This document shows, in pieces, positions 54,727 to 56,219 of a DNA stretch of 64,000 nt. A program made the translations under genes and the position numbers. The first letter of the stretch is position 1. Every line of letters begins with the position of its first letter. Origin of the DNA: an uncultured bacterium (GTDB lineage Bacteria; Patescibacteriota; Minisyncoccia; Phycocordibacterales; Phycocordibacteraceae); contig CAVXAH010000001.1 of assembly GCA_963759775.1 (NCBI GenBank), positions 208,682 through 272,681 of the forward strand, written 5' to 3'. The notes beneath the pieces are model-generated. The model ran no database searches, was not told the origin of the DNA, and saw nothing but the letters and a program-made list of their open reading frames with translations.

Positions 54727-56219
54727 TTTGGAATTATTCCACGAGCAGCTTCCGCTACCCGTGCCTTGTTACGACTTACTCCCTGTCACTGAGTTTACCG
54801 TAGGCCCACACAAGGTGAGACTTCGGGTACTCCCAGCTCCCTTGAGTTGACGGGCGGTGAGTACAAGACTTGAGAACGTATTCACCGCGGTATAGCTGAC
54901 CCGCGATTACTAGCAATTCCAACTTCATGAGGTCGAGTTGCAGACCTCAATCCGAACTGGGGCACAGTTTTATAAGGATTTGCTCCAGCGTTACGCTCAT
55001 TGCGTCCCGTTGTACCGGCCATTGTATTATGTGTGTAGCCCAGGATATCAAGGGACATGCTGACCTGGCGTCATCCTCACCTTCCTCCCCGTTCAACTTT
55101 CAGAATCTGACTAAGCGGGGCAGTCTCGCCTGACACTTGTAACAGACAACGAGGGTTGCGTTCGTTACCCCACTTAAGGGAACAATTCAAACCACGAACT
55201 GACGACGGCCATGCATCACCTGTCCTACACCCTCGAAGGCTTCCTAGTTTCCTAAGGCGTTCAGCTAGGATTTCTAACCTTGGTAAGGTTCTTCGTTTAC
55301 CGTCGAATTAAACCACATAATCCACTGCTTGTGCAAGTCCCCGTCTATTCCTTTGAGTTTTAACCTTGCGGTCGTACTACCCAGGCGGCTCACTTAACGC
55401 GTTAGCTTCGCCTCTCAGAGGGTCGATACTCCGAAAAGCTAGTGAACATCGTTTAGGGCGTGGACTACTGGGGTATCTAATCCCATTCGCTACCCACGCT
55501 TTCGTGTTTCAGTGTCAGGAATGCGCCAGTGTACTGCCTTCGCTTTTGGTGTTCCCCATGATATCAACGGATTTCACCCCTACACCATGAGTTCCACACA
55601 CCTCTCACACCCTCTAGTCATACCGTTTCCCCTGCGAGTTCCGCGGTTAAGCCCAGGGATTTAACAGAAGACTAACATAACCACCTACACACCCTTTACG
55701 CCCAATGATTCCGGATAACGCTTGGGGCACTCTGTATTACCGCTCCTGCTGGCACAGAGTTTAGGAACCCCTTATTCATGAGGTACTGTCAATAAACTTC
55801 CTCCCTCATAAAAGATGTTTACATCCCGAAGGACTTCATCCATCACGCGGCGTCGCTCCGTCAGACTTTCGTCCATTGCGGAAGATTCTCGACTGCAGCC
55901 ACCCGTAGGTGTATGGACCGTGTCTCAGTTCCATCGGTGGGGGTCAGGCTCTCAGCTCCCCTAAGCGTCATAGCCTTGGTAAGCCATTACCTTACCAACT
56001 AGCTGATATTACGCAGGCCGCTCCCAAAGCGATAAATCTTTACCCCTGCAGAGACTATCGGGTATTACCCAGCCTTTCGGCTGAGTTATTCCCGACTTTG
56101 GGGTACGTACCTACGTGTTACTACCTCGTTTGCCGGTTGCCCTTGCGGCCCCCTTGACTTGCATGCCTTATCCACGCCGCCAGCGTTCATCCTGAGCTAG
56201 GATCAAACTCTCATTAAGA
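54727..56219 (-). rRNA. rrs: 16S ribosomal RNA (about 1.49 kb, ends approx)
   Basis: On the minus strand: AGAGTTTGATCCTAGCTCAG (5' end), GTGCCAGCAGGAGCGGTAATAC, ATTAGATACCCCAGTAGTCC, and AAGTCGTAACAAGG followed by helix 45 with a GGAA loop. Confidence 0.92.

What the first reader, a model, noticed from the sequence alone, without database searches (positions are those of the whole stretch)
54727..54762. 16S rRNA 3' tail lacks the anti-Shine-Dalgarno CCUCC
Helix 45 is intact (CACGGGTAGC-GGAA-GCTGCTCGTG) and aligns position by position with E. coli. The 13 nt that follow read GAAUAAUUCCAAA instead of GAUCACCUCCUUA. There is no CCUCC in the next ~300 nt of trailer. Consistently, I found no GGAGG-like motif in the 20 nt upstream of the starts I inspected (rpsB, prfA, gap, fba, kinase, yerC-like, secA, the ATPase, murC). 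Loss of the anti-SD has been reported for a minority of bacteria. It would be a defining feature of translation initiation in this organism.
Basis: partly seen in the sequence, partly recalled or inferred. Interest (0 to 1): 0.6.

Follow-up and report, generated by a model that had tools for sequence, protein, structure and literature searches.

The report
16S rRNA lacking the anti-Shine-Dalgarno sequence
This Parcubacteria (candidate phyla radiation) bacterium has an intact 16S rRNA gene whose 3' end has lost the sequence that normally docks mRNAs, and its genes look built for translation without a 5' leader; the loss is real but was already reported for this bacterial group.

Summary
The 16S gene lies on the minus strand (56218..54727). 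A covariance model aligns its end without gaps: helix 45 is intact, and GGAAUAAUUCCAAA replaces GGAUCACCUCCUUA, so CCUCC becomes AUUCC. No CCUCC occurs in the next 330 nt.

It is neither an assembly error nor a pseudogene. About 70 independent Parcubacteria/Paceibacterota genomes that share this 16S signature carry the same kind of tail. Only five keep CCUCC or UCUCC.

Gene starts in the window show no Shine-Dalgarno enrichment: 3% against 13% at internal ATGs. The same pipeline gives 58% against 5% in E. coli. No motif complementary to the new tail is enriched either. Instead, a -10 promoter box (TAnnnT, often TGnTAnnnT) sits 5-9 nt before 37% of ATG starts, which is the signature of leaderless mRNAs. 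Many downstream genes overlap the preceding stop codon. Relatives show the same pattern.

The former anti-SD positions still pair with the adjacent trailer in a small hairpin, and compensatory changes maintain it across the clade.

Loss of the anti-SD in a Parcubacteria subgroup was published in 2022 (Tsurumaki et al.). This is therefore a new member of a known kind. The leaderless signature and the conserved hairpin are added detail. Interest is moderate.

The parts
54727..56218 (-). Complete bacterial-type 16S rRNA gene
   Evidence: RF00177, 1290 bits, model positions 1-1533
54740..54763 (-). Helix 45: CACGGGUAGC / GGAA loop / GCUGCUCGUG
   Evidence: CM alignment. 10 pairs, 99.9% of cells paired across 68 distinct relatives, with 7 pairs changed on both sides
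54727..54739 (-). 3' tail GAAUAAUUCCAAA in place of GAUCACCUCCUUA; the anti-SD CCUCC is replaced by AUUCC
   Evidence: Gap-free CM alignment to the model end. The same tail family occurs in about 70 Parcubacteria genomes
54721..54734 (-). Small hairpin AUUCC-AAAU-GGAGU formed by the former anti-SD positions and the first trailer bases
   Evidence: MFE fold. Covariation across the clade: 90% of cells paired and 3 of 4 pairs with compensatory changes. Permutation test: at least 3 bp in 51 of 71 sequences against 29.3 +/- 3.5. Found in 69 of 76 sequences
54553..54579 (-). 3' arm of the leader/trailer processing stem, about 148 nt after the 16S end
   Evidence: Inverted repeat I1: 27 nt, 89% complementary to 56218-56244
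56218..56244 (-). 5' arm of the leader/trailer processing stem, abutting 16S position 1
   Evidence: Inverted repeat I1
56428..56456 (-). Promoter-like site upstream of the 16S (TTGACG-17-TAGTAT)
   Evidence: Consensus scan; the total number of such sites is no higher than in shuffles, so this is weak evidence
54497..54559 (-). Long stem-loop after the processing stem, with an inner GC hairpin AAACAGCCC-GGAA-GGGCUGUUU (54530..54508); possible end of the 16S transcript
   Evidence: Inverted repeat I4 and sequence reading. The terminator scan did not call it
12594..12613 (-). Example leaderless-type start: TGCTAATAT box, 6 nt, then the ATG of GAPDH (ATG at 12613..12611)
   Evidence: Upstream sequence. 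The Pfam Gp_dh_N profile starts at residue 4
26785..26802 (-). Example leaderless-type start: TGCTATGGT box, 6 nt, then the ATG of Obg
   Evidence: Upstream sequence. The Pfam GTP1_OBG profile starts at residue 4
31567..31570 (-). Example of coupled initiation: ATGA stop/start overlap between the Wzy_C-family gene and the MurB-like gene
   Evidence: ORF coordinates 31567..33753 and 30542..31570; classification; Pfam families

Best explanation
The window comes from a Parcubacteria/Paceibacterota (candidate phyla radiation) bacterium. Its functional 16S rRNA has lost the anti-Shine-Dalgarno sequence, a trait shared by a large subclade of that group. Translation initiation therefore does not use SD:anti-SD pairing (shown by sequence statistics). 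First genes of transcription units appear to be transcribed as leaderless or nearly leaderless mRNAs, because a -10 box, often an extended -10, lies 6-8 nt before the AUG. On such mRNAs the ribosome would start directly on the 5'-terminal AUG (inferred). Downstream genes would be started by termination-reinitiation, because their starts overlap or closely follow the preceding stop codon (inferred). The former anti-SD positions remain under selection, but for pairing with the adjacent 3' trailer in a small hairpin. That hairpin is the same one that pairs CUCCUU with AAGGAG in relatives that keep the anti-SD. It most likely serves precursor 16S 3'-end processing (inferred).
For: The 16S gene is complete, and its tail aligns gap-free with CCUCC replaced by AUUCC.

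A 16S signature scan returned 120 loci, almost all titled Parcubacteria, Paceibacterota, Kaiser-, Adler- or Nomurabacteria and the like. Of 76 recovered 3' ends, about 70 have GGAWNAWUYCMA-type tails and 5 keep CCUCC or UCUCC.

The literature reports the anti-SD motif in only 48% of Parcubacteria (PMC9297842).

In the window, an SD 4-mer occurs at 1 of 35 starts against 13% of internal ATGs, and no 5-mer occurs. Duplex energy with the canonical tail or the window's own tail is not lower at starts. The E. coli control gives 58% against 5%, p=9e-16.

TAnnnT with a 5-9 nt gap occurs at 13 of 35 starts against 5.1% of controls, p=7e-8. The extended -10 occurs at 5 of 34 starts against 1 of 521 controls.

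The 72 anti-SD-less relatives show no SD enrichment (13% against 13%). TAnnnT is at 42% against 8% (p=2e-24), TGnTAnnnT at 21% against 0.7% (p=3e-25), and the gap distribution peaks at 6-7 nt.

Pfam profiles begin at residues 4-14 of seven starts that carry such boxes.

Fifteen genes start within -25 to +15 nt of the upstream stop, six of them by 4-nt overlap.

For the hairpin: 90% of cells are paired, with pair types CG:32/AU:24/UA:2, UA:32/CG:7/UG:6 and CG:56/UA:7. The permutation test supports it. Relatives that keep the anti-SD show CUCCUU-UCU-AAGGAG.

A leader/trailer stem encloses the gene.
Against: No transcript data exist, so transcription start sites and the mature 16S 3' end are inferred, not observed.

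Only 64 kb of the genome was seen, so a second rRNA operon with an anti-SD cannot be excluded formally.

About a third of starts fall in neither the leaderless nor the coupled class.

Alignment A3 was fitted to the structure it tests. My register-fixed test found the full 4 bp in only 34 of 71 sequences.

The NJ tree places an anti-SD-retaining genome (L113) beside the window's lineage, so a single ancestral loss is not established.

TAnnnT enrichment in AT-rich relatives is partly compositional. In the anti-SD-retaining set the positional peak is broad.
Confidence: 0.8

Rival explanations
1. The SD:anti-SD pair has been re-coded rather than lost: the new tail (AAUUCCAAA) pairs with a co-evolved mRNA motif such as UGGAAUU upstream of starts.
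For: The tail keeps UCC, is fairly conserved in the clade, and is single-stranded in the canonical model.
Against: GGAA is found upstream of 8% of starts and 8% of internal ATGs. GGAAT/GAATT/TGGAA is at 3% against 6%. Duplex energy with the window's own tail is weaker at starts (-1.82) than at controls (-2.65). G is depleted at -14 to -5. The tail sequence differs between sublineages (UUCC, UUCA, CUCA, UUUC) and tracks its trailer partner, not a common mRNA motif.
Confidence: 0.04
2. Artefact or pseudogene: the 3' end is misassembled, or this is a decaying copy and the working 16S elsewhere in the genome has CCUCC.
For: Only 64 kb was seen, and metagenome rRNA regions are prone to chimeric assembly.
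Against: The CM match is full-length at 1290 bits. Helix 45 is intact. A 27-nt leader/trailer stem is in place. The same tail family occurs in about 70 independently assembled genomes, including complete chromosomes such as L059 (CP174360) and L023. SD motifs are absent from the genes themselves.
Confidence: 0.03
3. The anti-SD is displaced rather than lost: an insertion after helix 45 (the small hairpin) pushed it downstream, and the mature rRNA extends further 3'.
For: Three relatives (L038, L052, L089) have CCTCC 23-25 nt after helix 45, where about 0.2 would be expected by chance (my own rough estimate). The window's trailer inside the processing stem is long, about 148 nt, and contains GAUCAC at about +47 (sequence).
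Against: The window has no CCTCC within 330 nt, and 67 of 70 anti-SD-less relatives have none near that offset. Across all trailers CCTCC (11) is no commoner than GGAGG (12). The three cases lie in the stems of local hairpins. Genes show no SD motif for such an element to pair with.
Confidence: 0.03
4. Bacteroidetes-like initiation: SD-independent start-site selection through A-rich, unstructured leaders and ribosomal proteins, rather than leaderless mRNAs.
For: SD motifs are absent. About a third of starts have neither a close -10 box nor an overlap with the upstream gene. Some -10 boxes lie 12-17 nt upstream, implying short leaders, for example tsf at 1352.
Against: Bacteroidetes keep the anti-SD (my own knowledge); here it is gone. 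No A enrichment appears at -1 to -20. The sharp 6-7 nt spacing of -10 boxes leaves no leader for many genes.
Confidence: 0.1

Closest known systems
Anti-SD-less subgroup of Parcubacteria (Tsurumaki et al. 2022, RNA 28:1041, PMC9297842)
   Same: Same phylogenetic group. Same trait: the CCTCCT motif is missing at the 16S 3' end, detected in only 48% of Parcubacteria. The window's tail belongs to the family seen in about 70 such genomes.
   Different: The paper reports motif absence and an overlap with uL1 loss. It does not mention leaderless mRNAs ('leaderless' occurs 0 times) and, in the passages read, does not describe what replaced the tail or its pairing with the trailer. The window's 16S is only about 88-89% identical to the nearest sampled genome.
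Leaderless-mRNA-rich bacteria such as Mycobacterium tuberculosis, Streptomyces and Deinococcus (Cortes et al. 2013, listed in the references seen; otherwise my own knowledge)
   Same: A -10 box lies about 6-7 nt before the AUG, with no SD, for many operon-first genes.
   Different: Those organisms keep a canonical anti-SD and use SD for their leadered genes; here the anti-SD itself is gone.
Bacteroidetes ribosomes (anti-SD present but sequestered; my own knowledge)
   Same: SD-independent initiation across the genome.
   Different: The anti-SD sequence is retained there and lost here. No A-rich leader signal is seen here.
Mammalian mitochondrial SSU rRNA
   Same: It lacks the anti-SD (stated in PMC10582724). 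Its mRNAs are largely leaderless (my own knowledge).
   Different: It belongs to an organelle with a handful of mRNAs and dedicated factors. Here a free-standing bacterial genome has ordinary sigma-70-type promoters.
Precursor-16S hairpin pairing the anti-SD with a downstream AAGGAG
   Same: Same position and topology: CUCCUU-UCU-AAGGAG in the anti-SD-retaining relatives L025 and L068 (L043 is similar, CUCCUU-UCU-AAGGAA), against AUUCC-AAAU-GGAGU here.
   Different: The sequence has changed on both strands through compensatory changes. A role in processing is inferred, not shown.

Membership tests
Bacterial SSU rRNA (Rfam RF00177) | Full-length match to the covariance model above the gathering score | tested here: met
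   1290 bits against a gathering score of 50, model positions 1-1533, not truncated
Bacterial SSU rRNA (Rfam RF00177) | Canonical 3' tail GAUCACCUCCUUA with anti-SD CCUCC | tested here: not met
   The tail is GAAUAAUUCCAAA. There is no CCTCC within 330 nt. This is a near-universal feature rather than a membership criterion
Anti-SD-less Parcubacteria (Tsurumaki 2022 subgroup) | Parcubacteria/Paceibacteria affiliation | tested here: met
   The 22-nt 16S signature GTGCCAGCAGGAGCGGTAATAC retrieves almost only Parcubacteria-type MAGs. The best 16S identities are 87-88% to Paceibacterota/Parcubacteria MAGs. The window sits inside that clade in the NJ tree
Anti-SD-less Parcubacteria (Tsurumaki 2022 subgroup) | No CCTCCT motif at the 16S 3' end | tested here: met
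Anti-SD-less Parcubacteria (Tsurumaki 2022 subgroup) | Co-occurring loss of ribosomal protein uL1 (an overlap reported, not a strict criterion) | not testable with these tools
   Absence cannot be judged from 64 kb of a genome
Leaderless-mRNA-dominated gene organisation | -10 promoter element at a fixed short distance (about 6-8 nt) upstream of start codons | tested here: met
   13 of 35 starts against 5.1% of controls in the window. Extended -10 at 5 of 34 starts against 1 of 521 controls. In relatives the peak is at 6-7 nt. E. coli control: 0 of 36
Leaderless-mRNA-dominated gene organisation | Start codon positions are correct | tested here: met
   Pfam N-terminal domains begin at residues 4-14 of GAPDH, Obg, SecA, FbaI, MurC, MurD-like and Tkt-N
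Leaderless-mRNA-dominated gene organisation | Mapped transcription start sites coincide with the A of the AUG | not testable with these tools
   Needs dRNA-seq or Cappable-seq, or a metatranscriptome
Bacteroidetes-type SD-independent initiation | Anti-SD retained in the 16S but not used | tested here: not met
   The anti-SD is absent
Bacteroidetes-type SD-independent initiation | A-rich leader upstream of starts | tested here: not met
   The position-specific composition shows no A enrichment

The most novel reading that the evidence does not exclude
The small hairpin made by the former anti-SD positions and the next ~10 nt may not be a transient precursor structure. It may be kept in the mature 16S rRNA as a built-in, cis-acting substitute for the SD:anti-SD helix. 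It would then occupy the platform cleft, next to helix 26, which Tsurumaki et al. found unusually conserved in Parcubacteria. That would give these ribosomes a permanently 'SD-engaged' conformation suited to leaderless mRNAs.
Probability: 0.12. Interest if true: 0.75.

Novelty: new member of a known kind. Interest (0 to 1): 0.4.

Why it matters
SD:anti-SD pairing is the textbook mechanism of bacterial start-site selection, and the anti-SD is among the most conserved rRNA sequences. A large free-living or episymbiotic bacterial clade that has deleted it is a natural experiment in SD-free translation. It also affects practice. Gene finders that score ribosome-binding sites will mis-place starts in these genomes. 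Expression of these genes in E. coli will need added ribosome-binding sites. Primers or probes against the 16S 3' end will fail. The loss itself is already published. What this analysis adds is that the genes carry a clear leaderless and coupled architecture, that SD use already looks low in relatives that keep the anti-SD, and that the altered tail is still constrained by a covarying hairpin.

Tried and rejected
1. A re-coded SD complementary to the new tail was tested by motif counts and duplex energies. There was no enrichment.

2. A displaced anti-SD further 3' was sought. The window has none within 330 nt. Across 75 trailers CCTCC is no commoner than GGAGG. Three relatives have one at +23 to +25, which remains unexplained.

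3. RNAduplex of the whole leader against the whole trailer was uninformative (-122.5 against -113.7 +/- 6.9 for shuffles). The inverted-repeat search replaced it.

4. The first positive control, using anti-SD-retaining loci from the genome scan, had only 4 usable starts. It was replaced by E. coli and by a metagenome scan for anti-SD-retaining Parcubacteria-type 16S. The contrast there is modest: the SD 5-mer occurs at 11% against 3% of starts, which is not significant between the groups.

5. MAFFT gave an ungapped alignment that could not represent the variation in loop length. I therefore built a covariance model and realigned.

6. Identifying the source genome by exact protein look-up gave only an unnamed Logan contig from ERR12037361.

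7. Literature searches for leaderless translation in Patescibacteria/CPR found nothing on the topic.

8. Conservation beyond the hairpin (a CG 1-3 nt after it in 34 of 69 sequences) was too weak to interpret.

Full report
**What is there**

The window holds one complete bacterial 16S rRNA gene on the minus strand, at 56218..54727 (RF00177, 1290 bits, model positions 1-1533). I re-scanned 54400-55000 to see the end of the alignment. Helix 45 is intact: CACGGGUAGC-GGAA-GCUGCUCGUG, at 54763..54740. The last 14 nt, GGAAUAAUUCCAAA, align without gaps and with maximal posterior probability to the consensus GGAUcACCUCCUUu. The anti-SD core CCUCC is therefore AUUCC here, and the GAUCA motif is GAAUA. 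No CCTCC occurs in the 330 nt that follow. The coordinates are + strand coordinates of a minus-strand RNA.

**Evidence that the gene is functional**

- A 27-nt inverted repeat, 89% complementary, pairs the sequence abutting 16S position 1 (56218-56244) with the trailer at 54553-54579. This is the usual leader/trailer processing stem of a pre-16S RNA.
- A promoter-like site lies upstream at 56456..56428 (weak evidence, because the scan finds no more such sites than in shuffles).
- Long stem-loops follow the processing stem at 54559..54497 and 54386..54347.
- tRNA-Ile(GAT) lies about 750 nt downstream.
- There is no 23S gene in the 64 kb.

**Which organism, and is the tail an artefact?**

The 16S has an unusual 515 region, CAGCAGGAGCGGUAAUAC. 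I scanned one genome per GTDB species for that 22-mer, a signature independent of the tail. Almost all are titled Parcubacteria, Paceibacterota, Kaiser-, Adler-, Nomura-, Zambryski- or Wolfebacteria, or Minisyncoccia. A few carry evidently mis-binned names.

The 3' end lay within the stored block for 75 of the loci, giving 76 ends counting the window. About 70 of these have tails of the form GGA(A/U)(U/C)A(A/U)(U/A)UC(C/A)A.... Only L025, L068 and L113 keep CCUCC, and L043 and L094 have UCUCC. The nearest 16S sequences are only 87-88% identical to the window's.

The tail is thus a clade-wide character seen in many independent assemblies, including complete chromosomes. It is not a misassembly or a pseudogene.

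This matches published work. Tsurumaki et al. 2022 found the anti-SD motif in only 48% of Parcubacteria, in lineages that overlap the uL1-lacking group (PMC9297842). The review read notes that Era recognises GAUCA plus CCUCC and that most CPR have lost Era. That fits relaxed constraint on this stretch; the link is my inference.

**Do the genes use SD?**

I called non-overlapping ORFs of at least 120 aa. I kept those whose most upstream start is ATG, and used internal ATGs of the same genes as controls.

| Data set | SD 4-mer at -20..-3, starts vs controls | TAnnnT 5-9 nt before the ATG, starts vs controls |
|---|---|---|
| Window | 1/35 (3%) vs 13% | 13/35 (37%) vs 5.1%, p=7e-8 |
| E. coli K-12, 50 kb control | 58% vs 5%, p=9e-16 | 0/36 |
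| 72 anti-SD-less relatives, 136-141 starts | 13% vs 13% | 42% vs 8%, p=2e-24 |

- In the window, no GGAGG-type 5-mer occurs at any start.
- Predicted duplex energy with the canonical tail is weaker at starts (-2.4) than at controls (-4.2).
- In E. coli, duplex energy with the canonical tail is significantly lower at starts (p=4.5e-7).
- A motif complementary to the new tail is not enriched either, and G is depleted at -14 to -5. The idea of a re-coded SD is rejected.

**What replaces SD**

A -10 promoter hexamer lies at a fixed short distance before the start codon.

- The extended form TGnTAnnnT occurs at 5 of 34 window starts against 1 of 521 controls. In the relatives it is at 21% against 0.7% (p=3e-25).
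- In the relatives the spacing peaks sharply at 6-7 nt, and the commonest hexamers are TATAAT and TATACT.
- With a 6-7 nt discriminator, transcription would begin on or next to the A of the AUG. That is the signature of leaderless mRNAs.
- The starts are reliable. Pfam N-terminal domains begin at residues 4-14 of GAPDH, Obg, SecA, class-I aldolase, MurC, a MurD-like ligase and transketolase-N, all of which carry such boxes.
- A descriptive classification of 60 ORFs gives about 28 leaderless-like starts, 15 coupled starts and 17 others. Coupled means the start lies within -25 to +15 nt of the upstream stop; six overlap it by 4 nt.
- Transcription start sites themselves were not observed. The leaderless and reinitiation mechanisms are inference from sequence.

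**The tail is still constrained**

Across the clade, the former anti-SD positions pair with the bases just downstream:

- UUCC-AAAU-GGAG in the window
- UUCA-AUU-UGAA
- CUCA-AAU-UGAG
- UUUC-AAAU-GAAA
- CUCCUU-UCU-AAGGAG in the anti-SD-retaining relatives

I built a covariance model from 14 in-register sequences and realigned 78 matches. In the tail helix, 90% of cells pair and three of four pairs change on both sides (CG:32/AU:24/UA:2; UA:32/CG:7/UG:6; CG:56/UA:7).

That alignment was fitted to the structure, so I added an alignment-free permutation test. At least 3 contiguous pairs form in 51 of 71 distinct sequences. When trailers are swapped between tail classes the mean is 29.3 +/- 3.5, with a maximum of 43 in 2000 trials. 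With a flexible register, 69 of 76 sequences have a stem of at least 3 bp and 45 have at least 4 bp.

The simplest reading is that the ancestral precursor hairpin, anti-SD paired with the trailer, has been kept by compensatory change after the mRNA-binding role was lost. I infer a role in 3'-end processing. Whether the 3' strand survives in mature rRNA cannot be told from DNA.

**Evolutionary context (tentative)**

I scanned metagenome contigs for Parcubacteria-type helix 45 followed by GGAUCAYCUCC. This gave 43 usable loci and 82 starts upstream of the 16S.

- SD 5-mers occur at only 11% of these starts against 3.6% of controls (p=0.005), at typical gaps of 4-13 nt.
- TAnnnT is also enriched, but its positional peak is broad in these 39%-GC sequences.
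- This suggests SD use was already minor before the anti-SD was lost.
- The difference from the anti-SD-less set (2 of 63 starts) is not significant by itself.

In a simple NJ tree, the anti-SD-retaining L113 falls next to the window's lineage. L113 also keeps the ancestral helix 45 sequence. One loss against several losses is unresolved.

**Comparison with what is known, and verdict**

The phenomenon is already described for this group, so this is a new member of a known kind. I found no paper in the searchable library that links leaderless initiation with CPR/Parcubacteria. The passages of the 2022 paper that I read do not describe the covarying tail hairpin. These two points are modest additions that deserve checking on whole genomes and transcriptomes.

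Noticed in passing
window 53742-53801 (-): A truncated tRNA-like element (Rfam tRNA, 36.5 bits, model positions 9-63) lies about 100 nt after tRNA-Ile(GAT). Its anticodon arm is identical to that tRNA's, but its T arm differs and it has no 5' acceptor strand. ARAGORN does not call it. It may be a remnant of a duplication or of an integration event.
   Followed up: no
window 1-64000; 16S at 54727-56218: There is no 23S or 5S gene anywhere in the 64 kb. The 16S has its own leader/trailer stem and downstream hairpins, so the rRNA genes appear unlinked.
   Followed up: partly
window 54390-54500 (-): A GC-rich stretch of about 110 nt lies between two strong stem-loops downstream of the 16S. It gives only a chance-level RNAI match (E=0.47). 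It could be a small RNA or part of the trailer.
   Followed up: no
window 41120-42355 and 42496-43779 (-): Two tandem paralogous genes share identical upstream sequence and identical 5' ends (about the first 30 nt shown), including the same TATATT box 7 nt before the ATG. This looks like a recent tandem duplication.
   Followed up: no
window 36000-40000: GC drops to 0.42 here against about 0.52 elsewhere. One of the few SD-like upstream sequences in the window lies in this region (gaggaaagaat-ATG at 38907). The region may have been acquired horizontally.
   Followed up: no
L038, L052, L089 (trailers, +23 to +25 after helix 45): Three anti-SD-less relatives carry CCTCC at nearly the same offset after helix 45, each inside a local hairpin stem. 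About 0.2 such cases would be expected by chance (my own rough estimate). This could be a displaced anti-SD in a few lineages, or coincidence.
   Followed up: partly
L113 (CAVZXD010000001.1, MFD01916.bin.1.18): This genome keeps GGAACACCUCCUUACC and the ancestral-type helix 45. Yet its 16S is among the closest to the window's (88%) and sits beside it in the NJ tree. That implies several independent losses, a reversion, or a tree error.
   Followed up: partly
L122-L241 (anti-SD-retaining Parcubacteria-type loci): Even where the anti-SD is kept, SD 5-mers precede only about 11% of starts, and -10-like boxes are enriched near starts. SD use may have been low before the anti-SD was lost.
   Followed up: partly
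window 55735-55755 and about 55895-55912 (-): The 16S deviates from the universal primer sites. The 515F region reads CAGCAGGAGCGGUAAUAC and the 341F region reads CCUACGGGUGGCUGCAG. Standard amplicon primers would probably miss this organism.
   Followed up: no
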